DNA of 64,000 nt from an uncultured virus (IMG/VR IMGVR_UViG_3300032233_001922) (IMGVR_UViG_3300032233_001922); one strand, 5' to 3'. Shown: positions 9,661-39,709, counted from the stretch's first letter. Numbers and translations: made by a program. The notes: generated by a model from the sequence alone, not told the origin.

Positions 9661-9690
9661 AAAAAGCGACTAAATATTAGTCGCTTTTTT
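9661..9690. terminator. bidirectional intrinsic terminator between convergent gene blocks
   Basis: AAAAAGCGACTAA-ATA-TTAGTCGCTTTTTT hairpin with A/T tails on both sides. Confidence 0.85.
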
Positions 9691-10034
9691 TATGCTATTG
9701 TAATTTTGTAGTAAGCATAAATGCTTGACGAAACATAAACAACGTTACCTACGTAAGAAAACAACCCTACATTGAAGGTGTTCAAAGCATCTACAACGCC
9801 TTGAATGTTATTTGTCAATAAATTAGTAGTCGGTAAATAAATTAGAGTAGTTGCGAGAACTTCATATTGTAATTCAACAGTCGTTACCCCTAAAAAATCC
9901 TCTGCGCTTAAATTGTATTCGTATATGGTATTTGAAACATTTGCAAATTGATAAGGCGTTGTTATTCCCAAGATATTAATTTCTTGTGGCAACGAAGTGT
10001 TGTTTTTTATTTTTAAATTTATGCTATCTTTCAT
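9690..10034 (-). CDS. beta-rich protein, possible minor capsid/vertex component
   Basis: Start moved to MKDSIN; INLKIKNNTSLPQEINILG weakly echoes YIVDITSTSGSAVANFEVLG of 29969-30664. Confidence 0.45.
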   Translation of the reverse strand: MKDSINLKIKNNTSLPQEINILGITTPYQFANVSNTIYEYNLSAEDFLGVTTVELQYEVLATTLIYLPTTNLLTNNIQGVVDALNTFNVGLFSYVGNVVYVSSSIYAYYKITIA

Positions 10035-10039
10035 AGCGT

Positions 10040-10504
10040 TTATATTTTTTTGTTTCTTATTAAGTAATACACTAAACCAGCTAATATAGCTACGCTTGTC
10101 CATTTAAAAACTTGTGAACTTACATACTTATTCCCTTTAGCAAAATTAACAAAATGCTCACAGTTAAAATTTATAAAATCATACTTGTAGTTTTTCAAAT
10201 TACTGTACAAATCTTTTAAATCAGATGTGTTCAAATTTGTTTTTTCTACTGAAACAATATCCCTTCCTTTAATCCATTTATTCAAAGGTTCTCTTACTAC
10301 ACTACCGCCTTTTGAATTGATTTTGTCGGGTTGATTGTGAATAATGAAAACATCATTACCTTTTTTTTCAATTATTCCATAATGATAAATTATAGGCAAA
10401 ATTTCTGCCTTTACTTTTATCAAATCTCCACTTTCTAATTTTGATACGATATGATTTCTATTTTGTATTTTTATAGTGTTCAATTGAGTTTCTTTAGATT
10501 TCAT
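10040..10504 (-). CDS. LRAT/NC-domain (permuted NlpC/P60) enzyme with C-terminal TM helix
   Basis: HYGI...IIHN and YDFINFNCEHFV catalytic motifs; TM VAILAGLVYYLI. Confidence 0.8.
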   Translation of the reverse strand: MKSKETQLNTIKIQNRNHIVSKLESGDLIKVKAEILPIIYHYGIIEKKGNDVFIIHNQPDKINSKGGSVVREPLNKWIKGRDIVSVEKTNLNTSDLKDLYSNLKNYKYDFINFNCEHFVNFAKGNKYVSSQVFKWTSVAILAGLVYYLIRNKKI

Positions 10505-10937
10505 TCAAAAAATCAGTAAAAAAAGAATCGTCTAAAAAATCATTTTTAGGAAGTGCATCGCTATTTTTTAACTCATCAACATATAAATTCAAAAATATTT
10601 CCTCGTTTGGAAGTATTTTAGTTGACATACTTACACGACCATTAAGGACTACATTTTCTTTAGTTAACTCAAATATTGCCGAGTTTTGATATTGATAAGG
10701 ACTTACTGGCGTGACTTGACTAAATGCTTTTAAAGTTCCATTTGAATCATATTGTAAAAACTTTAAAGTTTCTAATAATTGAGATGAACTATTGGTTTTT
10801 ATGTATAAAGAATCAATTCCATACACGTAACTACCCATTGAGTTAATTATTTGCTCATAGGTAGTTCTTGTAGTACTCACTACTTCTACAACATTATTTA
10901 CATAAGTAGTAGTTATCGGTATATAGATTCCAGCCAT
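10494..10937 (-). CDS. paralog of the major-capsid candidate (putative minor capsid protein)
   Basis: QLLETL/DSNG/SPYQYQ match QVLETL/DANG/DPYQQQ of 29969-30664 with the same spacing. Confidence 0.6.
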   Translation of the reverse strand: MAGIYIPITTTYVNNVVEVVSTTRTTYEQIINSMGSYVYGIDSLYIKTNSSSQLLETLKFLQYDSNGTLKAFSQVTPVSPYQYQNSAIFELTKENVVLNGRVSMSTKILPNEEIFLNLYVDELKNSDALPKNDFLDDSFFTDFLNEI

Positions 10938-10945
10938 ATTTTATT

Positions 10946-11287
10946 TTATTTTTCTTCTGCCAATACTTTACCTTCGCTTGACATCGCTCTTAATTTACCA
11001 GTTGTTTTGCTTCGGGTAATTTTAACTTTATAATCTTTTAAAATCATAGCGTTTAACTTGTCCAGCTCTCTTTTTGGCTCTTTATTGTCAATTGCATCAC
11101 GCATAGCTTGTAAGCCTATTACCGCATCATCCTTAACTTTTTTATTTTCTTCTGTTGCCAATTTAGGCGCTTCATACTTATTTGTTGAAGAAGTGCTTTC
11201 GCCACCTTTGCTTTTTGGTTTGAAAAACCAAACTAAACCTAATGCTACCGCTACGGTAGTTAACAAAATTTTTGTTTCTTTGTCCAT
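10946..11287 (-). CDS. single-pass membrane protein
   Basis: N-terminal ILLTTVAVALGLVWFF. Confidence 0.65.
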   Translation of the reverse strand: MDKETKILLTTVAVALGLVWFFKPKSKGGESTSSTNKYEAPKLATEENKKVKDDAVIGLQAMRDAIDNKEPKRELDKLNAMILKDYKVKITRSKTTGKLRAMSSEGKVLAEEK

Positions 11288-11288
11288 C

Positions 11289-11648
11289 TTATTTTTTTCC
11301 TAATTTTAATATTACTATTGCTAAAACAACAATTCCAACGCCTAAAACGATGTAAGAAGTGTATCTTTTACTTTGTATTTTATTAAGCATTTCATTATTA
11401 TTTTGAACTGCTAAATATTGATAAATTATTTGTTGCTTTGCTATTTCCCCTTGAACGTTTTGTAAATGTTCTTCTAACCACTTTTGTTGGTCTAGTGAAA
11501 GCAAACCAATCTTTTGTTCCATTTCCCTTTGCTTTTTGGCATCTGCTTTTGCAAAAGCACCTCCAATAATTGCAGTTACCGCACTACTTACTACTGCTCC
11601 TCCAATTGCACTGCCAAGACCACCACCGCTACTTTTTTCTGCTTCCAT
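11289..11648 (-). CDS. Gly/Ala-rich coiled-coil membrane protein
   Basis: Gly-rich N-terminus, Gln-rich coil, C-terminal TM followed by KK. Confidence 0.65.
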   Translation of the reverse strand: MEAEKSSGGGLGSAIGGAVVSSAVTAIIGGAFAKADAKKQREMEQKIGLLSLDQQKWLEEHLQNVQGEIAKQQIIYQYLAVQNNNEMLNKIQSKRYTSYIVLGVGIVVLAIVILKLGKK

Positions 11649-11651
11649 AAT

Positions 11652-12191
11652 TTATTTTTTAGAAATTAAATAAACTCCAAACAATATGCCAAGTCCTACG
11701 CCAAGTCCAGTAACATACAACCAAGTGTCTTTTAATCTTGCCGTACTTTCAGTTTGCAATGTTTTTCGGTATTCTAACATAGAATTTGCTAAAATACCAC
11801 TTCTTGCGTTTTCAGTTTGACTTCTTAATTGTTCCGATGCAAGTTTTTCATTTGCGGACAAATTAGCCAAAGTCATATTGTATTGTGCAGTTCTATTCCT
11901 TTGTGCGGTTTCTTGCGCCATTACACCGCCAATAACACTTGTAACTACTGACAATATACCACTAACCATATTTAGCTCCCCTTCGTTCGCTATAGCCATA
12001 TCAAAATCATTAGCGAAGTCTTTATTCAAATCTATAATTATAGCTTTAAATGTAAGTTCATTTATTTTTGATATGGTTGCGGTATCAATAGAAATATCGT
12101 AGCCATACTTTTCTAAAAGTTTGACTACGATTTCTGGTTTTTCGTATATAAAATCAGCTATTTTCTGTTCTGCTGGATTTAACTTTTCCAT
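11652..12191 (-). CDS. membrane protein, related in layout to 28838-29473 and 29475-29876
   Basis: PEIVVKLLEKYGY N-terminal motif; C-terminal TM followed by KK. Confidence 0.65.
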   Translation of the reverse strand: MEKLNPAEQKIADFIYEKPEIVVKLLEKYGYDISIDTATISKINELTFKAIIIDLNKDFANDFDMAIANEGELNMVSGILSVVTSVIGGVMAQETAQRNRTAQYNMTLANLSANEKLASEQLRSQTENARSGILANSMLEYRKTLQTESTARLKDTWLYVTGLGVGLGILFGVYLISKK

Positions 12192-12250
12192 TAATTTGAA
12201 ATTAATTAATTAATTTATCCACAAATCTACAAAAAAAAATATTAGCAATA

Positions 12251-13126
12251 TTATTTCAAGGCATTAATAATTGATTGAGTATCAAATACCTCACTTAAGT
12301 TATTATACGGTAATGTGGAAATATCCTCATAAAGTGAATGTTTAGTATAAGTATTGCTTTCAACATTCACTTCTTTTGTTGGTTCTTTTGCAGTAATGTT
12401 ATTGTGCAATTCATAACCGAAAACTTTAGGATTTGTTCCAATCCAACCTACAACACTTGGTAAATTCAATGCAGTAGCAACGTGCATAGAACTACTATCA
12501 ATCAATAGTCTTTTAGATGCCAAAGTAAGCATTATCGCTATGCTTCTCCAATTGTCTAAAGCACCAATTGTATTTTCGTAAATTAATTGGTCATCTCTTT
12601 TTATATGCAATATTGCATAATCATTTTTAAATTGGCTCACTACCTCATTTACCAAAGTCGAAGGCAAATCTCTTGTCCAACTATATTTTAAAGGTTGTCC
12701 TATTCCACCACCGTTTGGCTGGATAGCCATAATAGGTTTGTCTAATTTGTAGAACGGTGCAAAGTATTCTTTTTCTGCTTTTGACAAAAATATTTCTGGC
12801 AATTCTCCATTATAATTTAGTCCATACATATCACACCAAATTTTTAATAAGTGATTGCTTTCTGTTATAAAATCACTCGTTAAATAAGGGTCTGAAATGA
12901 AAACTTTTGCATCTTTGTTTTGAATATAGTTTTTATAAAAACCAACCGCTTGTGAATGATTAAGTATTTTATTTACGTTTGGATTACCAATAAAAACATC
13001 GGGATAACCAGTCAAAACAATTATGTTTGCTTTTTTGTACTCTTTTTTTATAACTTTAAGAACCGCAGTAGCCATTATTGACTTACCCAATCCACCCTCC
13101 ACCGAAAATACTATATTTTGTATCAT
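12251..13126 (-). CDS. glycosyltransferase, GT9/heptosyltransferase-like
   Basis: GGLGKSIM N-terminus, IDSSSMHVATALNLPSVVGW...TNPKVFGY. Confidence 0.75.
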   Translation of the reverse strand: MIQNIVFSVEGGLGKSIMATAVLKVIKKEYKKANIIVLTGYPDVFIGNPNVNKILNHSQAVGFYKNYIQNKDAKVFISDPYLTSDFITESNHLLKIWCDMYGLNYNGELPEIFLSKAEKEYFAPFYKLDKPIMAIQPNGGGIGQPLKYSWTRDLPSTLVNEVVSQFKNDYAILHIKRDDQLIYENTIGALDNWRSIAIMLTLASKRLLIDSSSMHVATALNLPSVVGWIGTNPKVFGYELHNNITAKEPTKEVNVESNTYTKHSLYEDISTLPYNNLSEVFDTQSIINALK

Positions 13127-13129
13127 TTT

Positions 13130-13351
13130 TTACTCTTTGTTTTTGTTGTTTTTAAGTCCGTATTCTGAAAAAGTGTACCACATCCTTTCGTGAAAAAAAT
13201 AGATTATTGGTTTAACACAAATTTCAGTCAATCCTATACTACCAGCAACCCAAAAATTACCAGTAAAAAAATAAGAAATTAAGCACGTTTGAAACGTGCC
13301 TAACGCTCTATAACTAACCGCTTTCGCTAAATGTCTTTTATAATTTACCAT
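13130..13351 (-). CDS. DUF2061-like small membrane protein
   Basis: RHLAKAVSYR...YFFHERMW. Confidence 0.75.
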   Translation of the reverse strand: MVNYKRHLAKAVSYRALGTFQTCLISYFFTGNFWVAGSIGLTEICVKPIIYFFHERMWYTFSEYGLKNNKNKE

Positions 13352-13742
13352 CTGCTCTCATTTGTTCTCTTATTTTAGTGGCTGAAACATCGCCTATTGC
13401 AGTAGGTGGAACATACTCAACAATATCATATCCAACATATCTACCAAAATTTACCGAATCAATATCGGGTATAATCATTACTTTCATAATTCCAGAGTTT
13501 ATCAATAAGGCATAAGTATCTTCAATGTTTTTCTTAACATCTTTTGGCGTAAAAGGATTTTTTTCATTTACCTCTCCATCTCTAATACAAATCAATAAAT
13601 TTTTACCCTCATCAAGCGCTTGTTGAAACAATGCCTTATGACTTTCGTGTAGAGGTTGCCAACGACCAATAAACATTGCGTATTGTGTTGGTTTTGCTTC
13701 TAAAGACGATTTAACGTGTGTAATTTTTTCCCAATTTTCCAT
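13338..13742 (-). CDS. HxGH-superfamily nucleotidyltransferase (cytidyltransferase-like)
   Basis: FIGRWQPLHESH and VSATKIR motifs. Confidence 0.75.
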   Translation of the reverse strand: MENWEKITHVKSSLEAKPTQYAMFIGRWQPLHESHKALFQQALDEGKNLLICIRDGEVNEKNPFTPKDVKKNIEDTYALLINSGIMKVMIIPDIDSVNFGRYVGYDIVEYVPPTAIGDVSATKIREQMRADGKL

Positions 13743-13744
13743 AA

Positions 13745-14062
13745 TTAACTAATGTATGCAATGTTGTTTTTAAATGTTATTTTTTCTGCTAAACAAGATA
13801 CGTGGTGTTTAATACCAATATCTTTAATATCAACACTTTCTGTTTTTGTTGGTATAAATATTGATATTTCACTAACTAAAAATTCATTTCTATTTAAAAG
13901 CAATCTCCATTTTTTAGTTCCATCGCTATCCGTGTTATTGTAACGTATAGCAACGTGAGTTTTTTCATTTTCTTTTTTTATTAGAACTTCTCTGCCTTCT
14001 GAAATATATTCTTGTATTTTTTCGGCAACAACTTCTTTTGCAACTTTTTTTTCTTTATCCAT
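13745..14062 (-). CDS. hypothetical protein
   Basis: 105-aa ORF inside the sulfation cluster. Confidence 0.55.
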   Translation of the reverse strand: MDKEKKVAKEVVAEKIQEYISEGREVLIKKENEKTHVAIRYNNTDSDGTKKWRLLLNRNEFLVSEISIFIPTKTESVDIKDIGIKHHVSCLAEKITFKNNIAYIS

Positions 14063-14525
14063 TTTTTTCCAATTTATATTGTTTAATTTTATCTAAAAGT
14101 TCATTGGTAGAGGTAAGTTCGTCTATATTAGTAGTGTCAATATCGATGTAATCTAAAAATGGTAATTCGTAATTTTCAACGTGGAAGTTTTCTCTACCAC
14201 GAATATCAGTTGTGTGAATATAAACCTCAATTACATCGGCAGTTAGTTTAAGTTCTTCCCTTAAATCTTTAAATGGAGAAACTACTGCTATAATTACATC
14301 ATGCAAAAAGTCGGTATCAATGTATTTAGCAATAGCATACGCTTTGCCAATATTATCTCTCCTACCTTTTTCGCTATAATCTTTATTGTTTAAAATTTTT
14401 CTTAAATCATCCCCATCGATAATAAAAACCTTTCTTTGTGGGTTTGATATTTCTAATGCGGTACGTAAATGTTTGGCTAATGTAGTTTTGCCAGAGTGCG
14501 GTTGCCCAATTAAATTGTAAATCAT
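14055..14525 (-). CDS. cysC: adenylylsulfate (APS) kinase-like protein
   Basis: GQPHSGKTT P-loop, IDGDDLR, DYSEKGRRDNI, VSPF. Confidence 0.8.
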   Translation of the reverse strand: MIYNLIGQPHSGKTTLAKHLRTALEISNPQRKVFIIDGDDLRKILNNKDYSEKGRRDNIGKAYAIAKYIDTDFLHDVIIAVVSPFKDLREELKLTADVIEVYIHTTDIRGRENFHVENYELPFLDYIDIDTTNIDELTSTNELLDKIKQYKLEKNG

Positions 14526-14567
14526 TTTTGTTGTTATTAAGTTTCTTATTCAAATGTAGTAAAAATT

Positions 14568-15386
14568 CTATACGTAGCCAAAATAATTATAAAACCACTT
14601 GTAAGTGTTTTTTATATTGTTTGATAATTCAAACCCCAAAACTTCATTGTAATCGTCTGGTTTTCTTTCAAATTTAGTTCTTAAAGTATGGTCGCCATAA
14701 ATTCCGTGAATAAGGTCGTTTTCTTGCGTGTATTGAGTTATATTCTCAAAATCGTGTGATTCATAATAAGGAAGTTCAAAATACTCGTATAAACGCTTCA
14801 TTTCGTTTTCTGGATTACACATTAAATCTTCATAACGAATAAAAAGCATTTTTTTATCTATACCTTGTTGAATACAATCTTTTAATCTATCCATTGACAC
14901 GCCAACTGGAACACCATCTGCCCAAATATTAATTCTTTTGTCTAGGGTCGTGCCAACTAATTGTGGTGCATTTTGAATATGACTTTCTCGGTGTGGATTT
15001 TTACGAAAGTTTTTTTCCATTGATGAATAAACTGAGCGTACATCTCTAACCATACAAACGATTTTTGGATTTTCATTTAGCATATTCAAAAGATTGTAAT
15101 GAATACCCCAATCTCGACTTTTATCTACAATAAATTGTTTTGGCGTAAGATTATTAAAAAAACCTTGAACACCAGCTCTACAAAAACCTAAAAAGGCATT
15201 TTCCATCGCTTGTTTATCTTGCGACAAAATTGATTGCGAATGAGCATAAGTGTTTTTTGAACTTAATATTAAATCGCTTAAACCAGAGGTAGGGGTGCAA
15301 TAAAAAGTGGGATTTTGAGCAATTAAATTTTGAAGCAAAGTACTACCACTTCTAGGAAGTGAAGAATTAAAAAAAATCTTTTTCAT
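14568..15386 (-). CDS. sulfotransferase family protein
   Basis: SLPRSGSTLL (5'-PSB), DKSR, MVRDVRSVYSS (3'-PB), IRYEDL. Confidence 0.85.
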   Translation of the reverse strand: MKKIFFNSSLPRSGSTLLQNLIAQNPTFYCTPTSGLSDLILSSKNTYAHSQSILSQDKQAMENAFLGFCRAGVQGFFNNLTPKQFIVDKSRDWGIHYNLLNMLNENPKIVCMVRDVRSVYSSMEKNFRKNPHRESHIQNAPQLVGTTLDKRINIWADGVPVGVSMDRLKDCIQQGIDKKMLFIRYEDLMCNPENEMKRLYEYFELPYYESHDFENITQYTQENDLIHGIYGDHTLRTKFERKPDDYNEVLGFELSNNIKNTYKWFYNYFGYV

Positions 15387-15468
15387 AATAGTTGTTATTT
15401 ATGTTTCTTGTTTTGATTGTAAAAAAAAGAGTTACCGAGTTTTACTCGATAACTCCTATTATTTTTTT

Positions 15469-15795: not shown

Positions 15796-15861
15796 TTTAT
15801 TTTAAAATTTATGAAATACAAATATAAATAAAGTATTTCGGTTTTGTTGTTTTTATTTTTA

Positions 15862-16731: not shown

Positions 16732-16750
16732 AATCTTTTATTTTGTTTTG

Positions 16751-18316: not shown

Positions 18317-18334
18317 TTTATTTTGTTTTTTAAA

Positions 18335-29876: not shown

Positions 29877-29893
29877 AATTATCGGTTTTAAGC

Positions 29894-31684: not shown

Positions 31685-31696
31685 AATTTTGAATTG

Positions 31697-32352: not shown

Positions 32353-32355
32353 TGA

Positions 32356-34253: not shown

Positions 34254-34689
34254 CTTTCAATGTATTTAATTTGGTTTTTATATTTGTTATTTTTTCTAAT
34301 GTTTTTCTATCAACTGGGTGTGCCGAGTTCAAAGATACTATTTCATTTTTATAAATCGAAGTAAGATTTTCGGGTTTTTTTAAAATAAAAGATATGTTTG
34401 AGTTATCTAAATTTACTCTATTTTGTAAAAACATAGCGCAAACTCCAATAGCACTACGCCTATTGTTTTTTCTTTTTGCTGAAAAGAACTCGCTTAAAGT
34501 CATTTCAAATTCCTCACATACAACATTAATTATGTTTTCTGCTTGTAGTATTTGGTCTGTTGTAATTTGGATATTATTCTTTCGAGAATAAACAAGGATT
34601 TCTATAAGTCGTTCCGTTCCGATTACATTGATTGTCTTATCTAACTCTTTGAGTACGTTAGATATGTTGTTAGTTGCTTCTTGGTTCAT
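34243..34689 (-). CDS. DnaA C-terminal-like HTH protein
   Basis: IINVVCEEFEMT...KRKNNRR...SNISFILKK pattern. Confidence 0.45.
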   Translation of the reverse strand: MNQEATNNISNVLKELDKTINVIGTERLIEILVYSRKNNIQITTDQILQAENIINVVCEEFEMTLSEFFSAKRKNNRRSAIGVCAMFLQNRVNLDNSNISFILKKPENLTSIYKNEIVSLNSAHPVDRKTLEKITNIKTKLNTLKDEQ

Positions 34690-34698
34690 ATTTTGTTG

Positions 34699-35082
34699 TT
34701 ATTTTAAGTATTCATCAATTATATTTTTAGTCTGTTCAAATCCAACTCCAAAACACGCTTTATATCCTTTTGCGTTTAATTTCTCTATTGTTTCCAATTG
34801 ACCTTTCAAATGGTCGTTTGTACTTGCTTTAATCGTTCCATCTTTTTTAAATGGCGTTGCAACCTTTAACTCTATGAATAATCCGTGAAAACCGTTTCTC
34901 GGTTCAAAAATTATTACATCTGGACATTTGAACCCGTTTTTTTGAATATTTCTATTTCTAACGGATTGCATTTTAGTTAATTTCAAATTTGCAATAGTAT
35001 CAGACATATAATCAATATCTTGGTATTGGTACGACAAATATCTACATACTGCGACTTGTAAGTCATATTCTGGATGTAGCAT
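34699..35082 (-). CDS. VRR-NUC-like nuclease
   Basis: EYDLQ, CPDVII, GLFIELK, Q...KGYKA. Confidence 0.75.
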   Translation of the reverse strand: MLHPEYDLQVAVCRYLSYQYQDIDYMSDTIANLKLTKMQSVRNRNIQKNGFKCPDVIIFEPRNGFHGLFIELKVATPFKKDGTIKASTNDHLKGQLETIEKLNAKGYKACFGVGFEQTKNIIDEYLK

Positions 35083-35726
35083 TATATTCCGTATTTTTTA
35101 GCAAATTCTGGGTGCTTTAAAATTTGCGCTCCCACTACTTTAGCAAAATCATTGTCTGTTGGGTAATGCTCCCCCATATAAACACGACTATAAGCAATAT
35201 CCTCAATTATCTCTTTGCAATAGCTATGGTATGTTGGGTATTTACTTGAAATTACATTTAATATCACATACGCTTCTGCGGTGTGACCCGAAGGAAAAGA
35301 AGGTGTGAAAGCAACATAGCTATTTTGAGGAAATAATTTTAATTTATAATAATTTGCCAATTGATTTGGTCTTGGTCTATTATAATAAAACTTCAATTTC
35401 ATAATAAGATTTTGAATATCTAAAACAATACTTGAAGTCAAGTCCTCTACATCAATTCCTTTCTGTTTGAAAGTAGTATTAATCACTTGTAGCAAATTCC
35501 TATCGTATGCTTTATATCTTTTAAGATAACCTAAATTATCGACATCCTCCATAGATTTTAAACAGTCAACAATTTCATTCAATTCGTCTTTAACTAATTC
35601 AGAATCATTAAGAGGGCAAACGTTTAATTTTAATTTGTCAAACAAGTCATCAACCATACAATTGTGGTCGAGTAATTGCTTTTGTTGAACAGTTGGATTA
35701 CCATAAGTTATTTCGTTAAATTCCAT
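35082..35726 (-). CDS. PAP2-superfamily phosphatase/haloperoxidase-like protein
   Basis: KFYYNRPRP, PSFPSGH, SRVYMGEHYPTD. Confidence 0.85.
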   Translation of the reverse strand: MEFNEITYGNPTVQQKQLLDHNCMVDDLFDKLKLNVCPLNDSELVKDELNEIVDCLKSMEDVDNLGYLKRYKAYDRNLLQVINTTFKQKGIDVEDLTSSIVLDIQNLIMKLKFYYNRPRPNQLANYYKLKLFPQNSYVAFTPSFPSGHTAEAYVILNVISSKYPTYHSYCKEIIEDIAYSRVYMGEHYPTDNDFAKVVGAQILKHPEFAKKYGI

Positions 35727-35729
35727 AGG

Positions 35730-35909
35730 TTATTTCTTGAAAAATTTTAATATTTTTTTATATTCATTAGTATTGTAAGGCACTTTACCGTTGAGCCAAT
35801 CTCTTTTAGCTGGACAACCGCAATCGTCTGTTATACTTTCTACAATAGCTTTAATTCCCGTAAAGGTAGTTATTTTTTCTATTGTATCGCCTAACCCTCT
35901 ACTTTGCAT
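35730..35909 (-). CDS. small phage protein (GLGDTIEKIT...DCGC)
   Basis: 59-aa manual translation. Confidence 0.6.
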   Translation of the reverse strand: MQSRGLGDTIEKITTFTGIKAIVESITDDCGCPAKRDWLNGKVPYNTNEYKKILKFFKK

Positions 35910-36003
35910 AATTTATTTTTTCATAAACTTGCAAATCAAATAACCTACTAATACTCCACCGCCAAATAAAGCTACGTGCATTGTTGTCATATTTTTCATA
36001 ATC

Positions 36004-36354
36004 TTATTTTTTAAATTTTTTGTATGCAAAATAACCAGCTACTAAAACTACTGCAATAATCAAATTTTGATTGTATGCACCAGCTAATTTTCTAAAATAA
36101 TAACCTTTACTTTTTGATGGAAGTTGTGCTTTTCCATTTGTAATTAAGCTATTACATCCAACTTTTTTACCTTCGTCATTTAAACACATTCCTCCATCTG
36201 TAATTGTCGGTTTTACTGAAAATTGTTTTTTAAATTTATCTATATCAATCGGAGCAGTATAGTCTTGAATTTGATTTACTGTTCCGAAATCAAGCGGTTT
36301 TGCGCCACCACCATCTACTAAACCTCCACTTGGGTTGTTTCCTATTTGTGACAT
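36004..36354 (-). CDS. membrane protein
   Basis: C-terminal TM followed by KKFKK. Confidence 0.6.
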   Translation of the reverse strand: MSQIGNNPSGGLVDGGGAKPLDFGTVNQIQDYTAPIDIDKFKKQFSVKPTITDGGMCLNDEGKKVGCNSLITNGKAQLPSKSKGYYFRKLAGAYNQNLIIAVVLVAGYFAYKKFKK

Positions 36355-36357
36355 AAA

Positions 36358-36690
36358 CTAAGTTTTTTGATATTTTTTACCTAACGCTTTTTGAACGTTG
36401 TATTTTATTTCCTCAATATCGCCAGTCATATTATCAAACTCATCTGCGCTCGGTTGTTCGTCAAGTTTTTTAATTGCTTTTCTGTAATACATAATACCGT
36501 AAATTGGTACTACAATCCATAATGCCATAATTAGTATATCTACCATTTTCCAACTTGCTTTAGCTTTATTTTCAAATGCACCACCATCTTCATAAGTAGG
36601 TGTTGGAGCTGGTGCTGGGGTTGGCGCAACAACTGGTGCTGGTGTTGGGGTTGGCGCTACTGGCGTAGCTACTGTTACTTCTGCTTCCAT
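36358..36690 (-). CDS. Pro/Thr-rich membrane protein
   Basis: APTP repeats, central TM. Confidence 0.6.
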   Translation of the reverse strand: MEAEVTVATPVAPTPTPAPVVAPTPAPAPTPTYEDGGAFENKAKASWKMVDILIMALWIVVPIYGIMYYRKAIKKLDEQPSADEFDNMTGDIEEIKYNVQKALGKKYQKT

Positions 36691-36692
36691 TT

Positions 36693-37103
36693 TTATTTTT
36701 TTAATGTTGATGTTATTAATAATATTCCAGCCAAACCTCCTAAACCAGCGTACACGTATTTATGCGCTGAAAGGTGTTCTTTGAAATTAGACAATGTGTT
36801 TGATGCTTTTTTAGGTAAAGGTTTTCCAAACACCGTTACTGCGCTTAATTCTATTGGGTTCGCATCTACCAAAGTAATTGACTTACCTTGTAATTCACTC
36901 GGTTTTAATGTTTTTGATTGAAAACCTAAATAGCTAACTTCAAATAATGAATTGTCATTAATTATTTCGTTTTCTAAACTAAAATTCCCATCTATATCTG
37001 CGGTAGTTCCAAACTTTCCCGATTGATTTCCGTTTCTAATTGTAATGTTTGCCAAAGCTAAAGGTTCGCCTTTAGAATCGACTACTGTTCCGTATATTTT
37101 CAT
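36693..37103 (-). CDS. carboxypeptidase-regulatory-like (SusC N-terminal-type) domain with C-terminal TM
   Basis: IYGTVVDSKGEPLALANI...GTTADIDGNFSL...VSYLGF. Confidence 0.75.
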   Translation of the reverse strand: MKIYGTVVDSKGEPLALANITIRNGNQSGKFGTTADIDGNFSLENEIINDNSLFEVSYLGFQSKTLKPSELQGKSITLVDANPIELSAVTVFGKPLPKKASNTLSNFKEHLSAHKYVYAGLGGLAGILLITSTLKK

Positions 37104-37279
37104 TAGCTTTTACCTCCCATTGTTAAACGTTTAATAGTGTACCAATTCACGATAGCACCTAACGTAAATGATATAATACCCACTACTACAAAAATAGTAG
37201 ATAGGTGCTTGTGTAACTCGGTATTAACCTCTTTTTTTATTACTTCTTCGTCTTGTTTAGCATTTTGCTCTAACATAGT

Positions 37280-37894
37280 CTATTTTTTTAATTTTTTGTA
37301 TAAATAATAACTACCGCCTAAAAGCAAAGTCAATCCTACTAATAAATATCCTTTATAAGACTTTACAAGTAAAGAGAAACTACCATTTTTCAACCACTCA
37401 CTTGGTAATTTTTCAAGCATAATTTTCTTGACTTCCCACACTTGTATTTTTTTATTTTTGTCGGTGTCAAAAGCTGGGTTTTGCGACGCTATTAAAGAAC
37501 TCGAAAGAGAATTAGTCTGCAAAACATAATCGTCTGGCTTACCTACTGCTAATGGGAAAAAAGTAACAAAATAAGTGTCTATATAGTTTTTCAACTTTCC
37601 TTTGTAAGGTAAATAGTATTTATACACATAATCTAACTGCTGAACTGCGGTCATGTTTTTTAAAGCACTCGATGTTGTTCCTAAACCTTTTGCAGTATTT
37701 GGGATAAATTGAATAAGTCCTACTGCACCTATTGGATTAGTAATACTTGGAGAAAATGTTTTAGCACTTTCCCAATACATAATTGCCATCAACCAATTTG
37801 GGTCAATGTTTAATTTGCTAGATATATTTTTGACTTTATTTATAAAATCAACTCTATATGATGCTGGAACTTTATCTTCAAATACTAACGCCAT
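37280..37894 (-). CDS. lytic transglycosylase-like protein with C-terminal TM
   Basis: LMAIMYWES...AVGLIQF...QLDYV; TM LLVGLTLLLGGSYYLY. Confidence 0.8.
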   Translation of the reverse strand: MALVFEDKVPASYRVDFINKVKNISSKLNIDPNWLMAIMYWESAKTFSPSITNPIGAVGLIQFIPNTAKGLGTTSSALKNMTAVQQLDYVYKYYLPYKGKLKNYIDTYFVTFFPLAVGKPDDYVLQTNSLSSSLIASQNPAFDTDKNKKIQVWEVKKIMLEKLPSEWLKNGSFSLLVKSYKGYLLVGLTLLLGGSYYLYKKLKK

Positions 37895-38188
37895 TTACCA
37901 CAATATTTGGTCGGCATACCAACCATTACTATTTTTTACTTTTCTGTCTTTTTTGTGTCGTTCTTTATATAGTTTTAGCCTATGATTAGCGTAGCCTTTT
38001 TGGAACAATCCACTTTTTTCGTTTTCTAAATAAGTAGGGTAATCTTTCATACCTCTTGCACCTATTCGGGCAACTCTGATACCATTTTTAAATACATCAA
38101 TCTTTTTCAAAATATTAGTTGAAGGTTTAATTTCAACGCCTATTCTTTTTGCTTGTGCATACGAGTATGGTAATATTTTGTAAGCCAT
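37895..38188 (-). CDS. basic protein resembling DUF5754
   Basis: KKIDVF...IGARGMKDY...YKERH...GWYADQILW. Confidence 0.55.
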   Translation of the reverse strand: MAYKILPYSYAQAKRIGVEIKPSTNILKKIDVFKNGIRVARIGARGMKDYPTYLENEKSGLFQKGYANHRLKLYKERHKKDRKVKNSNGWYADQILW

Positions 38189-38191
38189 TTT

Positions 38192-38401
38192 TTAAACTGC
38201 TATAGCACCATTAATACATTGTTTCCAAGTAGTTGTGTAATAAGTACCATCTGGTCTTTTACAACGAGTAAGTTTACCAGTAGCATTGCTATATTCATCT
38301 TCCGAACATTTACACTCTTTTTTTTTATTTTGTTTCCAAACATAATAACCAGCTCCTAAGACTGCTAATCCTCCTACTAAATACATTGCGTTTTTTTTCA
38401 T
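38192..38401 (-). CDS. small Cys-containing membrane protein
   Basis: N-terminal TM; YSNATG motif. Confidence 0.6.
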   Translation of the reverse strand: MKKNAMYLVGGLAVLGAGYYVWKQNKKKECKCSEDEYSNATGKLTRCKRPDGTYYTTTWKQCINGAIAV

Positions 38402-38417
38402 TTTATATCGATTTTAA

Positions 38418-39113
38418 TTATTTGTTTTTAAACCATAAATCCAAAAATCCATTTTTGCCTAACATTTTTAATAAATAACCTCTACTCTCTAAATTGAAAA
38501 TTTTATTATTTATCATTTGCTCGGTTGTCTGACTGCTCTTAACCTTACTTTTTGAAGCATAATATCCAGAGTTGTAAGATACCATAACTTTGTTAATGTT
38601 TGCGCCACTATTGTCTTTAAACGCTTCTAACAACCAACGTATGTTTGCAGTACCTACTGCAATATTAAATTCTGGTATTTTTAAAGCGTTCAATATTTCA
38701 TTTGTTACCGAAGTAGTAGGCAATACATTTGGGTCAAATTTCTTACTTGATGGAATTATTTTGTTAAAATATTCCTTTGCAACTTTAGGCAAAGGACTAC
38801 CTACAATTTTATCCCATTTAGAAATCATTTCCCAAACCGCATCGGGTGTCATTTGCATTAACCCTACTGCACTATAATTGTTTTTGCCAACATTAATACC
38901 GCCACTCTCAGTAGCAATAAATCCAGTTATAATTGAATCGTCAACATCAAACACTTCGCCCCACTTAGCAATGTAACCTCCATAGGTTTTATAAATCGTG
39001 TTCATTACATCCGTGTTCGCTTTAATTGTTTCTGGTTTAGAATAATTATAGCTTCCTTTCACGTAGGTACGATTAACATCGGGAACTTTTATTTTTATTT
39101 TTGTAAAAGACAT
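38418..39113 (-). CDS. SLT-family lytic transglycosylase
   Basis: IATESGG, AVGLMQM, NIAVG, SYNSG. Confidence 0.85.
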   Translation of the reverse strand: MSFTKIKIKVPDVNRTYVKGSYNYSKPETIKANTDVMNTIYKTYGGYIAKWGEVFDVDDSIITGFIATESGGINVGKNNYSAVGLMQMTPDAVWEMISKWDKIVGSPLPKVAKEYFNKIIPSSKKFDPNVLPTTSVTNEILNALKIPEFNIAVGTANIRWLLEAFKDNSGANINKVMVSYNSGYYASKSKVKSSQTTEQMINNKIFNLESRGYLLKMLGKNGFLDLWFKNK

Positions 39114-39295
39114 ATCTATTCGGTTAAAGGTTCTTCACTTGTTGGGGTATCAAACGTTTGTAAGGTAACTGTACCACCCCTAATTTTTCTAACATTTCTT
39201 GTAAGATATTTGGTAAGCACAAAACCGCCTACCGCAACTCCTACAATACCTACGCCTAAAAATATTTTCTTTTTTATATCCACTTTATTTTTTTT

Positions 39296-39709
39296 CTACC
39301 TATTATTTTTAAAATAATTTATTGCTCCTAAACTACCTACAAGCAACAAACCCCCTAAAACTAAACCTACTACACCCATACCGCTTTTTTTCTCTTTTTC
39401 ATCCTCTTTAATAGGTTGATTTATTGGAGCAACTGGTGGTACATTTTGATTTTGAGCATTTTGCTTTGCATCTCTTTGTTTTTTCTCAAAAAGCGTTTCC
39501 ATATCCTCAATCAAATCTTGTTCCGTATCTTCGATATATTCCAAAATCTCATTTAATTCAGCTAAAGAATCATCCGTTGGTTCTGCTTCATATTCCTCTC
39601 TTGCGCTTTCTGATTTTTCTTTTAACGCTTGTAATCCATCTAATCTTTTTGCAATTGAAGGTGTTACCTTATTTTGCAACTTTGCCAAAATACTGTTAAT
39701 TGTTTCCAT
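39296..39709 (-). CDS. helical protein with C-terminal TM
   Basis: Acidic coil, GVVGLVLGGLLLVGSLGAI. Confidence 0.6.
   Translation of the reverse strand: METINSILAKLQNKVTPSIAKRLDGLQALKEKSESAREEYEAEPTDDSLAELNEILEYIEDTEQDLIEDMETLFEKKQRDAKQNAQNQNVPPVAPINQPIKEDEKEKKSGMGVVGLVLGGLLLVGSLGAINYFKNNR

What the first reader, a model, noticed from the sequence alone, without database searches (positions are those of the whole stretch)
9690..39709. Probable large tailless, inner-membrane virus of Bacteroidota (at least 64 kb)
Seen: a 30-kb co-oriented block contains a 271-aa ATPase with A32/P9-type motifs (GRKGCGKT, LLLIED, NRH, HFQ), a 231-aa beta-rich capsid candidate, dozens of single-pass membrane proteins, fibres and a membrane-anchored transglycosylase. 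No terminase, portal, HK97 capsid or tail genes are recognisable. Known: FtsK-HerA packaging ATPases with jelly-roll capsids and inner membranes define PRD1/PM2-like and sphaerolipovirus-like viruses, whose genomes are generally much smaller than this window. Inference: an under-described lineage that combines this morphogenesis module with tailed-phage-type accessory genes (RecET, DarB-like, tRNA).
Basis: partly seen in the sequence, partly recalled or inferred. Interest (0 to 1): 0.85.

Follow-up and report, generated by a model that had tools for sequence, protein, structure and literature searches.

The report
Large tailless membrane-type phage lineage
This window is most of the genome of an uncultured lake-water bacterial virus that appears to have no tail and to pack its DNA into a jelly-roll capsid with an inner membrane, yet is two to three times larger than any known bacterial virus of that kind.

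Summary
The 271-aa ATPase folds (pLDDT 88.6) and its best solved match, by two aligners, is the STIV2 B204 genome-packaging NTPase (Foldseek E 1.7e-10; Z 18.6). Its profile also aligns with the P23-77 packaging ATPase (hhalign 87%). The 231-aa protein folds (pLDDT 86.3) as one eight-stranded jelly roll, but the match is generic (best Z 6.6). It is the best-conserved protein shared with a distant relative. It has a 147-aa paralogue, and the ATPase gene lies upstream in 33 of 33 related loci. In the block, 26 of 59 ORFs carry a predicted membrane helix, against 4 of 56 elsewhere in the window. No terminase, portal, HK97 capsid, tail or protein-primed polymerase family was found in the window or in relatives of 68 to 132 kb. 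Independent contigs suggest a linear genome with inverted terminal repeats of about 1.3 kb. No cultured relative and no published description was found. Capsid role, membrane and taillessness remain inferred. Confidence 0.68.

The parts
1..64000 (.). Most of one viral genome; two gene arms that converge at about 9650
   Evidence: strand layout; near-identical to a 59,664-bp viral record and syntenic with the 72,545-bp relative G002; the window's own 231-aa protein is on record on a contig of 72,118 bp.
32356..33171 (-). Genome-packaging ATPase, FtsK-HerA superfamily, A32/P9/B204 type (271 aa)
   Evidence: Model pLDDT 88.6. Best match STIV2 B204: Foldseek E 1.7e-10, TM 0.70; Z 18.6, rmsd 2.5, 185 aligned. 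hhalign to P23-77 ORF13: prob 87.2, 151 columns. PF01935 is on record for 10 of the 120 listed homologues.
29969..30664 (-). Single jelly-roll protein, candidate major capsid protein (231 aa): N-terminal helix 3-16, disordered 18-44, beta-sandwich 48-215
   Evidence: Model pLDDT 86.3. Jelly-roll matches only, best Z 6.6. 1983 clusters at 90% identity and 555 at 50%. 89.6% identical to G002 and 65.8% to G010, the highest of all well-covered proteins shared with G010.
10494..10937 (-). Small jelly-roll paralogue (147 aa); candidate vertex (penton) protein or second capsid protein
   Evidence: hmmsearch with the 231-aa family profile: E 1.5e-10. hhalign: prob 95.2 over profile columns 101-201. 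Conserved in G002, G010 and G012.
33171..34253 (-). 360-aa acidic, poorly structured protein with a Lys/Arg-rich C-terminal tail, directly upstream of the ATPase; scaffold or DNA-binding role is a guess
   Evidence: Sequence. The Atlas's own model has pLDDT 0.55 and no family. Conserved in G002, G010 and G012.
34243..34689 (-). 148-aa protein with a DnaA-C-like helix-turn-helix; possible DNA-recognition partner for packaging (inferred)
   Evidence: PF08299 E 4.7e-4, below cut-off. NCBIfam DnaA C-terminus E 2.9e-4. Conserved in all relatives compared.
34699..35082 (-). 127-aa nuclease-like protein
   Evidence: phrog_824 E 6.6e-12; phrog_5702 'Holliday junction resolvase' E 5.9e-5.
35082..35726 (-). 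PAP2-family lipid or undecaprenyl-diphosphate phosphatase-like protein (214 aa), a core gene
   Evidence: PF01569 E 3.7e-13. NCBIfam undecaprenyl-diphosphatase E 3e-5, far below cut-off. Conserved in G002, G003, G010 and G012.
36004..39709 (-). Entry/membrane module: two SLT lytic transglycosylases (37280-37894 with a hydrophobic C-terminus; 38418-39113), a SusC-N-terminal-like domain protein (36693-37103) and several small single-pass membrane proteins
   Evidence: PF01464 E 1.1e-8 and 8.8e-11; PF13620 E 4.7e-11. TIGR04056 SusC/RagA N-terminus E 3.5e-14. TM calls.
31034..32352 (-). Lysis genes: M15 peptidase endolysin (31697-32158), DUF6549 protein with an N-terminal TM (31034-31684), 64-aa membrane protein
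   Evidence: PF13539 E 2.8e-17; phrog_2649 endolysin E 3e-24; PF20186 E 4.7e-9.
21229..29876 (-). Run of about 25 small ORFs, most with one predicted TM helix (candidate virion membrane proteins). It includes a conserved 261-aa HExxH protein (26580-27365), a glycine-zipper protein (28298-28522) and a PG-binding-domain protein (26238-26567).
   Evidence: TM list. (sequences, HEFSH motif). (Gly-zipper, PG_binding_1, all below cut-off). (metallopeptidase lead, score 0.85 only).
15862..21224 (-). Variable fibre or spike genes (289, 521, 313, 183, 460 aa)
   Evidence: They match parts of the 676-, 1018- and 870-aa fibre-like ORFs of G002. Weak beta-roll and GDSL/SGNH hits, below cut-off. UspA1 repeat in the G002 counterpart.
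10040..10504 (-). 154-aa LRAT/NlpC-P60-like protein with a hydrophobic C-terminus (weak)
   Evidence: PF05903 E 1.4e-4 and PF04970 E 5.8e-4, both below cut-off. Sequence.
12251..15386 (-). Glycan/sulfation module: 291-aa protein with a weak heptosyltransferase-like match, DUF2061 membrane protein, nucleotidyltransferase-like protein, APS kinase, sulfotransferase
   Evidence: PF09834 E 1.1e-20; PF01583 E 3.4e-12; PF13469 E 1.5e-17. TIGR02195 E 0.0048, weak.
39848..50209 (-). Three polyvalent proteins (791, 1667, 919 aa): LPD11, SNF2 helicase with a DarB-like part, DarA_C with an N6 methylase
   Evidence: PF18824 E 9.1e-31; PF00176; phrog_10089 E 6.6e-27; PF18789; PF02384.
7743..9616 (+). Recombination pair: PD-(D/E)XK exonuclease and RecT
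   Evidence: PF03837 E 7.5e-32; phrog_148 E 6e-52; phrog_69 E 2.5e-6.
55451..57554 (-). tRNA-Gln (55451-55522), replication-initiation module (273-aa protein, then a 226-aa Phg_2220_C/DnaD-like protein) and a Cro/CI-type HTH
   Evidence: PF09524 E 9.5e-28; phrog_428 'replication initiation protein' E 3.4e-31.

Best explanation
The window is about 64 kb of a roughly 72-75 kb linear dsDNA genome. It belongs to an uncultured virus of freshwater Bacteroidota that builds a tailless icosahedral particle with an internal membrane. Proposed working, with each step marked shown or inferred. (1) The late arm (9690-39709, minus strand) encodes the 231-aa single jelly-roll protein as the main shell protein. 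The 147-aa paralogue serves as the vertex protein or a second shell protein. The fold and the paralogy are shown; the capsid role is inferred. (2) About two dozen small single-pass membrane proteins, with PAP2- and LRAT-like lipid enzymes, populate a host-derived lipid vesicle under the shell (inferred). (3) The 271-aa B204/P9-type FtsK-HerA ATPase sits at one vertex and pumps the linear genome into the preformed particle. The neighbouring HTH, nuclease-like and basic-tailed proteins may help. The fold class and the conserved linkage to the jelly-roll gene are shown; the activity is inferred. (4) Variable fibres or spikes bind the host. Two lytic transglycosylases, one membrane-anchored, open the cell wall at entry, as PRD1 P7 does (inferred by analogy). 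(5) An M15 endolysin and nearby membrane proteins lyse the cell. (6) The genome carries inverted terminal repeats of about 1.3 kb and no polymerase of its own. It does carry an initiator/loader-type module and RecT with an exonuclease, so it probably uses the host replisome. How the ends are replicated is unknown.
For: ATPase. The best solved match by two independent aligners is the STIV2 B204 packaging NTPase: Foldseek ranks 1-14, E 1.7e-10, TM 0.70; VIA Z 18.6, rmsd 2.5, 185 of 204 residues. Next come DndH-C 16.0, HerA 15.6 and VirB4 14.7. The profile aligns with the P23-77 packaging ATPase at prob 87.2, E 3.9e-6, over 151 columns running from Walker A to the Arg/Gln motif.

Jelly roll. The model has pLDDT 86.3, and matches are dominated by jelly-roll capsid and penton proteins. 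A 147-aa paralogue is conserved in all four relatives examined.

Linkage. An ATPase gene lies 0.3-3.9 kb upstream on the same strand in 33 of 33 related loci with at least 4 kb upstream (34 of 35 in all).

Conservation. The jelly-roll protein has the highest identity among the well-covered proteins of the 27 shared with G010 (65.8%; ATPase 54.1%).

Membrane proteins. 26 of 59 ORFs in the block against 4 of 56 elsewhere. PRD1 gives 9 of 27, PM2 6 of 20, lambda 11 of 80.

No tailed-phage hallmark or protein-primed polymerase. Window. G002: 102 ORFs by Pfam and 77 by PHROGs. G003: 110 ORFs. G012: 71 ORFs. Six-frame searches gave 0 of 5 records each for PF03237, PF03175, PF05065, PF04860 and PF03354, and each search rang in 1 to 5 of the 14 control genomes (PF03175 in one only, below its cut-off).

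Termini. Two relatives end in perfect 123-bp inverted repeats. Independent contigs run 1158-1162 bases past the end of G002 and then stop.

Host. One relative is binned in a Sediminibacterium MAG, and one homologue is labelled Flavobacterium sp.. There is a SusC-type N-terminal domain. Genes lack Shine-Dalgarno sites (3 of 115), and TAnnTTTG is modestly enriched upstream (16 of 115 against 8.9 +/- 2.65; one or more of the 200 random trials also reached 16).
Against: The jelly-roll match is generic. No Z reaches 8, and the single best hit is a carbohydrate-binding module of AlgX (Z 6.6). The jelly-roll profile has no similarity to the capsid or penton proteins of PRD1, PM2, P23-77 or SSIP-1 (hhalign prob below 1).

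Extra paralogues of the domain sit outside the morphogenesis module. In G004 a 154-aa copy and a 397-aa tandem double lie next to a glycosyltransferase. The domain is therefore not exclusively a shell protein.

The ATPase profile matches PRD1 P9 and SSIP-1 gp40 only at Walker A. PHROGs labels the ATPase's nearest family 'terminase large subunit' (E 2.1e-7).

Only two proteins could be folded. An HK97-fold, portal or novel capsid protein among the many unannotated ORFs is not excluded by HMM searches. One example is the conserved 311-aa early protein at 4028-4963.

Polyvalent DarB/LPD proteins, ArdA and methylase arrays are typical of tailed phages and conjugative elements.

There is no direct evidence of particles, lipids or expression. 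The window's own contig ends were not seen.
Confidence: 0.68

Rival explanations
1. It is a very divergent tailed phage (Caudoviricetes). Its terminase, portal, HK97 capsid and tail proteins are too far from known families for HMMs to find. The jelly-roll protein would be a decoration, fibre-tip or lectin protein, and the small ATPase would have another role.
For: The accessory genes are of tailed-phage type: RecT/exonuclease, DarB-like and ArdA proteins, DnaD-like initiator, tRNA. phrog_2666 is labelled 'terminase large subunit'. Most ORFs have no family. Jelly rolls are common in phage fibres and cement proteins, for example the KHP40 cement protein at Z 5.0. Only two proteins were folded.
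Against: There were no hallmark hits in the window or in relatives of 68-132 kb. Apart from a glycosyltransferase, fibres and polyvalent proteins, no ORF of portal or TerL size (400 aa or more) is conserved across the relatives. The only packaging-type ATPase is 271 aa, has no nuclease domain, and is closest to B204 and P23-77 ORF13. 44% of late-arm ORFs are predicted membrane proteins.
Confidence: 0.12
2. It is a tailless virus that uses the FtsK-HerA ATPase, but the 231-aa jelly-roll protein is not the main shell protein. It would be a vertex, spike-base or glycan-binding protein. The true capsid protein, or a non-icosahedral or enveloped architecture, would be something not yet recognised.
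For: The top structural hit is a CBM. Penton and spike-base proteins are among the best viral hits: PR772 P31 Z 6.2, phiCjT23 chain J Z 5.7, PM2 P1 Z 5.5. Accessory paralogues lie beside glycosyltransferases.
Against: No other conserved, unannotated, non-membrane protein of suitable size lies in the late arm. This protein is the most conserved one and forms a very large family. It is tightly linked to the ATPase gene. One relative carries two tandem full-length copies, 83% identical. A separate smaller paralogue is available for the vertex role.
Confidence: 0.12
3. It is not a virus but a linear plasmid or conjugative-type mobile element. The ATPase, transglycosylases and many small membrane proteins would form a secretion or transfer apparatus.
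For: VirB4, TrwB and other type IV ATPases are among the structural neighbours (Z 14.7, 12.2). SLT (VirB1-like) enzymes, ArdA, methylases and polyvalent proteins are common on conjugative elements.
Against: No relaxase, coupling protein, VirB4-size ATPase or Bacteroidota Tra family appeared in any Pfam scan. An endolysin, a lysis cassette, fibres and a jelly-roll protein are present. B204 scores well above the type IV ATPases. The viral collection estimates the related records as complete viral genomes (CheckV 98-100%).
Confidence: 0.05

Closest known systems
Thermus phage P23-77 and the sphaerolipovirus-type viruses (Helvetiavirae: Matshushitaviridae, Sphaerolipoviridae, Simuloviridae)
   Same: The packaging ATPases are alignable by profile (prob 87.2). 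Both have single jelly-roll capsid-type proteins in more than one paralogue, an ATPase gene just upstream of the capsid gene, and transglycosylase and lysin genes (record table). Sphaerolipoviruses have linear genomes with inverted terminal repeats (abstract start seen in the search listing, PMC12643093).
   Different: Their genomes are 16-31 kb (listing abstracts; P23-77 record 17,036 bp), against 68 to at least 132 kb here. The jelly-roll proteins share no detectable sequence similarity. The two paralogues here are 19 kb apart, not adjacent. The host is mesophilic freshwater Bacteroidota, not thermophiles or haloarchaea.
[quoted passage not shown]
   Same: It is a tailless membrane-containing phage reported to have a PRD1-type architecture and two capsid protein types (passages of PMC6356626). 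It is the largest such record examined here (43,788 bp). Its structural protein gp40 carries a Walker A motif.
   Different: There is no similarity beyond Walker A for the ATPase and none for the structural proteins. Its genome is circular in the record. Its habitat is hypersaline.
STIV / STIV2 B204 packaging NTPase
   Same: It is the best structural match of the 271-aa ATPase. Both are small single-domain FtsK-HerA ATPases.
   Different: It comes from an archaeal virus of 16-17 kb (size recalled). Sequence identity is 13-18%. The protein here has an extra C-terminal helical part (res 217-271) that is not covered by the match.
PRD1 and other Tectiviridae
   Same: Both have a linear genome with inverted terminal repeats, genes transcribed inwards from both ends, many small virion membrane proteins, a virion transglycosylase (P7), a small jelly-roll vertex protein (P31) and a P9 ATPase (record table).
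   Different: PRD1 is 14,927 bp and has a double jelly-roll capsid protein, a terminal protein and its own DNA polymerase. None of these was found here. Similarity to P9 is limited to Walker A.
Flavobacterium phages FLiP and phiCjT23 (Finnlakeviridae)
   Same: The host phylum and habitat are the same, and they are tailless lipid-containing particles (abstracts in the listing). A phiCjT23 capsid chain and the FLiP capsid protein are among the jelly-roll matches (Z 5.7 and 5.2).
   Different: They are small circular ssDNA viruses. FLiP lacks a packaging ATPase (passage of PMC5894146). The structural scores are not above background.

Membership tests
A32 / PRD1-P9 / STIV-B204-type packaging ATPases (FtsK-HerA superfamily) | P-loop ATPase with Walker A and Walker B | tested here: met
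   GRKGCGKT and LLLIED; G13, G16, G18, K19, E112 and D113 are invariant in 43 sequences.
A32 / PRD1-P9 / STIV-B204-type packaging ATPases (FtsK-HerA superfamily) | FtsK-HerA-type fold, closest to a known viral packaging ATPase | tested here: met
   B204 is the top hit. Foldseek E 1.7e-10. Z 18.6, against 16.0 for DndH-C, 15.6 for HerA and 10.4 for FtsK.
A32 / PRD1-P9 / STIV-B204-type packaging ATPases (FtsK-HerA superfamily) | Sequence-profile similarity to established members, including the Arg/Gln motif after Walker B | tested here: inconclusive
   P23-77 ORF13: prob 87.2 over 151 columns, with NRH...HFQ aligned to GRE...VTQ. PM2 P9: prob 54 over 39 columns. PRD1 P9 and SSIP-1 gp40: Walker A only. 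The name of the motif is recalled.
A32 / PRD1-P9 / STIV-B204-type packaging ATPases (FtsK-HerA superfamily) | Gene linked to the capsid gene | tested here: met
   33 of 33 loci with enough upstream DNA. This assumes the jelly-roll protein is the capsid protein.
A32 / PRD1-P9 / STIV-B204-type packaging ATPases (FtsK-HerA superfamily) | ATP-driven DNA packaging at a unique vertex | not testable with these tools
   Needs biochemistry or cryo-EM.
Tailless icosahedral viruses with jelly-roll capsid and inner membrane (Varidnaviria in the wide sense, including the single jelly-roll Helvetiavirae) | Major capsid protein with a jelly-roll fold | tested here: inconclusive
   The fold is a jelly roll, but all Z are below 8. 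The capsid role and the upright orientation were not tested.
Tailless icosahedral viruses with jelly-roll capsid and inner membrane (Varidnaviria in the wide sense, including the single jelly-roll Helvetiavirae) | Internal lipid membrane with virus-coded membrane proteins | not testable with these tools
   Indirect only: 26 of 59 late ORFs have a predicted TM helix; PAP2 and LRAT-like enzymes are present.
Tailless icosahedral viruses with jelly-roll capsid and inner membrane (Varidnaviria in the wide sense, including the single jelly-roll Helvetiavirae) | No terminase, portal or HK97 module | tested here: met
   No such family in the window or in G002, G003 and G012. 0 of 5 records for each of four hallmark families. 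HMM level only.
Helvetiavirae (sphaerolipovirus-like) | Two single jelly-roll capsid proteins encoded side by side next to the ATPase | tested here: inconclusive
   Two paralogues exist (231 and 147 aa) but lie 19 kb apart. One relative has two tandem full-length copies. There is no sequence similarity to VP16 or VP17.
Helvetiavirae (sphaerolipovirus-like) | Genome of about 16-31 kb | tested here: not met
   Relatives are 67.8, 72.5, 101.2 and 132.5 kb.
Tectiviridae | Double jelly-roll capsid protein; protein-primed family B polymerase and terminal protein | tested here: not met
   No polymerase: PF03175 in 0 of 5 records and none in the Pfam scans. No double jelly-roll protein was identified in the core. 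The only tandem double is an accessory paralogue in one relative.
Caudoviricetes | Large terminase with a nuclease domain, portal, HK97-fold capsid protein | tested here: not met
   Not met at the HMM level (calls as above). A fold-level test of all ORFs was not possible, because only two predictions were allowed.
Conjugative element / type IV secretion | Relaxase, coupling protein, VirB4-class ATPase | tested here: not met
   None in the Pfam scans of the window, G002, G003 or the G012 subset.

The most novel reading that the evidence does not exclude
These genomes would be the first large bacterial members of the single jelly-roll, FtsK-ATPase virus lineage. This would be a widespread freshwater Bacteroidota virus group of 68 to at least 132 kb. 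It would build big tailless membrane-containing capsids from small jelly-roll paralogues. It would keep linear genomes with inverted terminal repeats of about 1.3 kb and no polymerase of its own. It would have grown by acquiring tailed-phage-type and plasmid-type accessory genes: polyvalent anti-restriction proteins, methylase arrays at the ends, and glycan and sulfation enzymes. That would be a bacterial parallel to the growth of giant viruses from small jelly-roll ancestors.
Probability: 0.45. Interest if true: 0.9.

Novelty: new variant of a known kind. Interest (0 to 1): 0.8.

Why it matters
The bacterial and archaeal viruses with jelly-roll capsids and FtsK-type packaging ATPases that I could check are small. 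A survey gives 7-18 kb (passage of PMC5894146). Sphaerolipoviruses are about 30 kb (listing abstract). SSIP-1 is 43.8 kb. A lineage of 68 to at least 132 kb would break that size limit. It would also show that large genomes are not the preserve of tailed phages among bacterial viruses.

The lineage looks common in lakes. The jelly-roll family has 555 clusters at 50% identity. The end of one relative is held in 24 lake-water runs, 4 of which may be its source. Automatic pipelines are likely to file such genomes with tailed phages: the taxon label on the Atlas clusters is Uroviricota. If so, part of the freshwater 'tailed phage' count may be misassigned.

The lineage also offers a test case for three questions. 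How are small jelly-roll proteins scaled up to large shells? How is a long linear genome with inverted repeats replicated without a viral polymerase? How could 1,600-residue anti-restriction proteins be delivered by a membrane-containing particle?

Tried and rejected
- **Deposited phages.** Megablast of window 29000-39000, and tblastn of the ATPase and the 231-aa protein, against 50,697 phage records gave no match. Records near the window may be left out of that collection.
- **Sequence searches of the PDB.** The ATPase and the jelly-roll protein (alone and as profiles) and three other ORFs found nothing beyond a Walker A match to ClpB.
- **Reference viruses.** hmmsearch of both profiles against all ORFs of SSIP-1, PRD1, P23-77 and PM2 gave nothing below E 0.17.
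- **Complex prediction.** Two copies of the 231-aa protein gave no verdict (score 0.00; controls not run). This counts neither for nor against self-assembly.
- **Atlas look-ups.** The 261-aa and 360-aa proteins gave only a weak metallopeptidase lead (0.85) and a poorly structured model.
- **Genome-collection scan.** It was redone with the single protein.
- **Tandem doubles.** The second tandem-double homologue, P0295, has no locus in viral contigs. I rejected the idea that tandem doubles are a double jelly-roll capsid form of this lineage. The one that could be placed is an extra paralogue in a genome that also has the normal 231-aa gene.
- **Terminal repeats.** The terminal repeat of G002 is not in the window, and the window's two ends are not inverted copies of each other, so the window holds no genome end. 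I rejected reading the 123-bp repeats as the full terminal repeats. Both relatives have exactly 123 bp of unrelated sequence, one of them a whole tRNA-Leu. This looks like the assembler's largest word size (recalled, not checked).
- **NCBIfam.** A scan of 30 core proteins gave no name for the ATPase or either jelly-roll protein.

Full report
**What is in the window.** The 64-kb window is low in G+C (0.27-0.36). It has two gene arms that meet at about 9650: + strand genes at 1-9616 and - strand genes at 9690-64000. It carries one tRNA-Gln. No whole genome is held for it. The window's own 231-aa protein is on record on a contig of 72,118 bp. A near-identical viral record of 59,664 bp covers window 37-59700 at 99.997%.

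**The observation.**
- The ATPase (32356-33171, minus strand) has the quoted motifs. They are invariant or nearly so in 43 homologues of 53-87% identity.
- The 231-aa protein is beta-rich.
- By a crude hydropathy rule, 26 of 59 minus-strand ORFs in 9690-39709 have a predicted membrane helix. The rest of the window has 4 of 56. PRD1 has 9 of 27, PM2 6 of 20, SSIP-1 14 of 69, lambda 11 of 80 and P23-77 2 of 28.
- There are two SLT transglycosylases, one ending in a hydrophobic tail. There is also an M15 endolysin, a PAP2 phosphatase, fibre-like ORFs, RecT with an exonuclease, and three polyvalent proteins with DarB-like, DarA_C, LPD11, SNF2 and methylase parts.
- Pfam (103 ORFs) and PHROGs (90 ORFs) give no terminase, portal, HK97 capsid or tail family.
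- Four rows carry such labels. phrog_2666 'terminase large subunit' matches the ATPase itself (E 2.1e-7, profile positions 324-533 of 555). phrog_196 'baseplate hub' covers only the lysozyme-type domain of the SLT protein. Two further rows are very weak (E 0.004 and 0.009).

**The ATPase.** With an alignment of 43 homologues, AlphaFold2 gives a confident model (pLDDT 88.6, pTM 0.85).
- Foldseek against the PDB puts the STIV and STIV2 B204 genome-packaging NTPase in ranks 1-14 (best E 1.7e-10, TM 0.70). The Zot N-terminal domain follows at 1.2e-6.
- An aligner that does not depend on Foldseek agrees. B204 scores Z 18.6 (rmsd 2.5, 185 residues of 204). Next are DndH-C 16.0, HerA 15.6, VirB4 14.7, TrwB 12.2 and FtsK 10.4.
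- At the sequence level the family profile aligns with the packaging ATPase of Thermus phage P23-77 (hhalign prob 87.2, E 3.9e-6, 151 columns). The alignment runs from Walker A through Walker B to an Arg...Gln motif.
- PM2 P9 gives prob 54 over 39 columns. PRD1 P9 and SSIP-1 gp40 match only at Walker A.
- Ten of the 120 listed homologues carry a precomputed PF01935 (HerA-type) hit.

The protein is therefore a small single-domain FtsK-HerA ATPase of the viral packaging type. Its activity was not tested.

**The jelly-roll protein.** The family is very large. There are 1983 clusters at 90% identity with E up to 1e-3, and the best 120 are 89-100% identical. At 50% identity there are 555 clusters, 287 of them at E up to 1e-10.
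- With 67 diverse members the model is confident (pLDDT 86.3). It has an N-terminal helix (3-16), a disordered stretch (18-44) and a beta-sandwich (48-215).
- Foldseek finds nothing at E up to 1e-3 in the PDB. Its best rows are jelly-roll capsid proteins (CPMV small subunit 1.5e-3, picornavirus VP3), TNF/C1q domains and carbohydrate-binding modules.
- The wide structural search gives 33 chains at Z 5 or more and none at 8 or more. The best is an AlgX carbohydrate-binding module (6.6). Then come PR772 penton P31 (6.2), grapevine fanleaf virus (6.2), phiCjT23 capsid chain J (5.7), PM2 P1 (5.5), PBCV-1, EhV and faustovirus capsid proteins (5.2-5.4), FLiP capsid protein (5.2) and PRD1 P31 (4.9).
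- A second look at Foldseek's top 1000 gives the same picture.

The refutation test 'does not fold as a jelly roll' fails: it does fold as one. The fold alone, however, does not single out a capsid role or a lineage.

**Support for a capsid role from context.**
1. The protein is 89.6% identical to that of G002. It is 65.8% identical to that of G010, the highest value among well-covered proteins of the 27 shared with G010. The ATPase is 54.1% identical.
2. An ATPase homologue lies 0.3-3.9 kb upstream on the same strand in 33 of 33 related viral loci that have at least 4 kb upstream. Overall it is 34 of 35, and the exception has only 523 bases upstream.
3. A 147-aa paralogue (10494-10937) matches the C-terminal two thirds of the protein (hmmsearch E 1.5e-10; hhalign prob 95.2). 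It is conserved in G002, G010 and G012. Its size is that of a vertex protein such as PRD1 P31 (126 aa).
4. One relative has two tandem full-length copies, 83% identical. Two others have an extra 193- or 217-aa copy beside the ATPase gene.

One result weighs against it. In the 102-kb relative G004, a 154-aa copy and a 397-aa tandem double sit next to a glycosyltransferase, far from the normal 231-aa gene. The domain therefore also has accessory uses. The tandem doubles seen in the representative search are not a fused capsid form.

**The rest of the genome, through relatives.** The window cannot show its contig's last 8 kb, so I used syntenic relatives.
- G002 (72,545 bp) is collinear with the window in reverse (window 3809 matches G002 68820; window 59397 matches G002 1565). 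Its genes run inwards from both ends.
- Pfam on 102 of its ORFs and PHROGs on 77 show no terminase, portal, capsid, tail or DNA polymerase. The one 'DNA polymerase' label is a 125-residue stretch inside a 1192-aa polyvalent protein (E 1.4e-5).
- G003 (101,210 bp) is collinear with G002. It is longer because of end arrays of DNA methylases, larger polyvalent proteins and more fibres. None of 110 ORFs hits a tailed-phage family.
- A 132,486-bp contig binned in a Sediminibacterium MAG has the same two-arm layout and G+C throughout. Pfam on 71 of its ORFs (those without a homologue in the other relatives, or of 500 aa or more) is also negative.
- Six-frame searches of ten further records gave 0 of 5 each for Terminase_6N, DNA_pol_B_2, Phage_capsid, Phage_portal and TerL_ATPase. 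The control genomes rang in every case, though DNA_pol_B_2 rang in only one and below its cut-off.
- Across the window, G002 and G010, the conserved ORFs of 300 aa or more are a glycosyltransferase, fibre and polyvalent proteins, the disordered 360-aa protein and a 311-aa early protein. None of them is both of portal or terminase size and unexplained.

All of this is at the HMM level. Only two structure predictions were allowed.

**Genome ends.** Two of ten relatives are classed as having inverted terminal repeats.
- Both repeats are perfect and exactly 123 bp, with unrelated sequences. In G010 the repeat is a whole tRNA-Leu gene at each end.
- An identical length in two samples suggests the assembler's largest word size. 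I recall such a setting but did not check it. If so, the contig is bounded by a longer inverted repeat that collapsed in the assembly graph.
- Contigs from other lake-water runs support this. They continue past G002 position 1 by 1162 bases (X1, possibly the source sample), 1158 bases (X7) and 1158 bases (X5), and then end.
- One X5 contig has the 123-bp piece flanked on the inner side by 1171 bases that do not fit the left arm. This is what the right-end junction would look like.
- Depth over the first 100 bases is about twice that of the neighbouring bins.

I infer a linear genome with terminal inverted repeats of about 1.28 kb. The outer sequence itself was not seen, so its identity at the two ends is not shown. 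No protein-primed polymerase is encoded. A Phg_2220_C/DnaD-like initiator module and RecT with an exonuclease are present. How the ends are replicated is open.

**Host.**
- One homologue is labelled Flavobacterium sp. by its source. The 132-kb relative is binned with Sediminibacterium. Three short hits lie in Bathyarchaeia and Planktophila bins, which I take for mis-binning.
- A late protein carries the N-terminal domain typical of SusC/RagA proteins (E 3.5e-14).
- Only 3 of 115 genes have a Shine-Dalgarno-like site, against 3.8 expected at random.
- The TAnnTTTG motif lies within 80 bases upstream of 16 of 115 genes. Random windows give 8.9 +/- 2.65, with a maximum of 16 in 200 trials.

Linking these two traits to Bacteroidota rests on general knowledge. 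Together this makes Bacteroidota the likely host, not a proven one. The left end of G002 is held in 24 runs, all labelled lake water; 4 of them may be its source.

**Comparison with what is known.**
- A survey of prokaryotic double jelly-roll viruses gives 7-18 kb (passages of PMC5894146).
- Sphaerolipoviruses are about 30 kb, linear, with inverted repeats and terminal proteins. Simuloviruses are 16-19 kb (abstract starts in the listing).
- SSIP-1 is 43,788 bp (record). It is described as having two capsid protein types (passages of PMC6356626).

The present lineage works most like the single jelly-roll group. It shares the ATPase kinship with P23-77, jelly-roll paralogues and a linear genome with inverted repeats. 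It fails the size criterion and shows no capsid-protein sequence similarity. It also adds a large set of accessory genes. I therefore do not file it in any existing family.

**Whether it is already described.** Six full-text searches found no description of a large tailless Bacteroidota virus of this kind. The library does not cover most subscription journals. No deposited phage genome matches either marker protein.

**Verdict.** The main rivals are a very divergent tailed phage (0.12), a tailless virus whose true shell protein is something else (0.12) and a non-viral element (0.05). I rate it a new variant of a known kind, with interest 0.8.

Noticed in passing
window 13130-15386 (-); also G002 L041:15870-17215 and G003 L055:516-1832: A conserved sulfation set: APS kinase, a sulfotransferase (90.8% identical between the window and G002, as conserved as the jelly-roll protein), a nucleotidyltransferase-like protein and a DUF2061 membrane protein. 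A virus that makes PAPS and sulfates some glycan or lipid is unusual. The target is unknown.
   Followed up: partly
window 51616-55288 (-): A cluster of glycosyltransferases (GT1, two GT2, a TET-associated-GT-like hit) and a hexapeptide acyltransferase. The 132-kb relative has a much larger sugar-modification block (RgpF, PglD-like, DegT, PhyH, methyltransferase) at L067:5345-12239.
   Followed up: partly
G003 L051:1943-7910 and L055:13835-15360; window 59615-61176: Arrays of paralogous DNA methylase genes near both genome ends of the 101-kb relative: five N6_N4_Mtase genes and one MT-A70 at the left end, and two N6_N4_Mtase ORFs at the right end that match complementary halves of the profile and may be one split gene. 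They lie in inverted orientation, like the end-located multigene families of large eukaryotic DNA viruses. The window has an N6_N4 methylase and a C5-methylase fragment in the same arm.
   Followed up: partly
L070:7424-11194 (record G004): A 397-aa protein made of two tandem copies of the jelly-roll domain, and a 154-aa single copy. They lie next to a glycosyltransferase in a genome that also has the normal 231-aa gene.
   Followed up: partly
L028:9992-11418 (record G009): Two tandem full-length copies of the 231-aa-type gene, 83% identical to each other.
   Followed up: yes
G012 contig 9 (L062-L068), 132,486 bp: A relative about twice the size of the window's genome, binned in a Sediminibacterium MAG and wholly viral in layout. 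It carries a 747-aa DUF285 repeat protein (E 1e-195) and three tRNAs at its right end, where G+C jumps to 0.46 in the last 486 bases.
   Followed up: partly
G003 L055:16372-16728 (-): ARAGORN calls a tmRNA-like gene with a 26-residue tag in the 101-kb relative. Not checked against Rfam.
   Followed up: no
G003 L053:10489-11604 (+): A 371-aa protein with two PAS domains sits between the endolysin and the DUF6549 lysis-region gene, an odd place for a sensor domain.
   Followed up: no
window 37895-38188 (-); G002 L040:10403-10747; window 47450-50209 and G002 L039:11813-15391: Several small conserved proteins or domains hit Pfam DUFs (DUF5754 weakly, DUF5872 at E 1.2e-13, DUF5661 at E 4e-9). As I recall, these were defined largely from large eukaryotic DNA viruses. 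Not examined further.
   Followed up: no
window 10040-10504 (-): A 154-aa protein with weak LRAT/PPPDE (NlpC-P60-like) hits and a hydrophobic C-terminus. It recalls tail-anchored phospholipase/acyltransferases. It could act on lipids of the particle or the host.
   Followed up: no
G003 L055:17799-18239 (-): A 146-aa protein with an RNA polymerase alpha C-terminal domain (E 5.4e-9) in the early arm of the 101-kb relative. It may redirect host transcription.
   Followed up: no
G002 and G010 contig ends: 'Inverted terminal repeats' of exactly 123 bp in two unrelated records look like an assembly signature of a longer repeat, not the true repeat length. Completeness calls that rest on such repeats may be slightly off.
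   Followed up: yes
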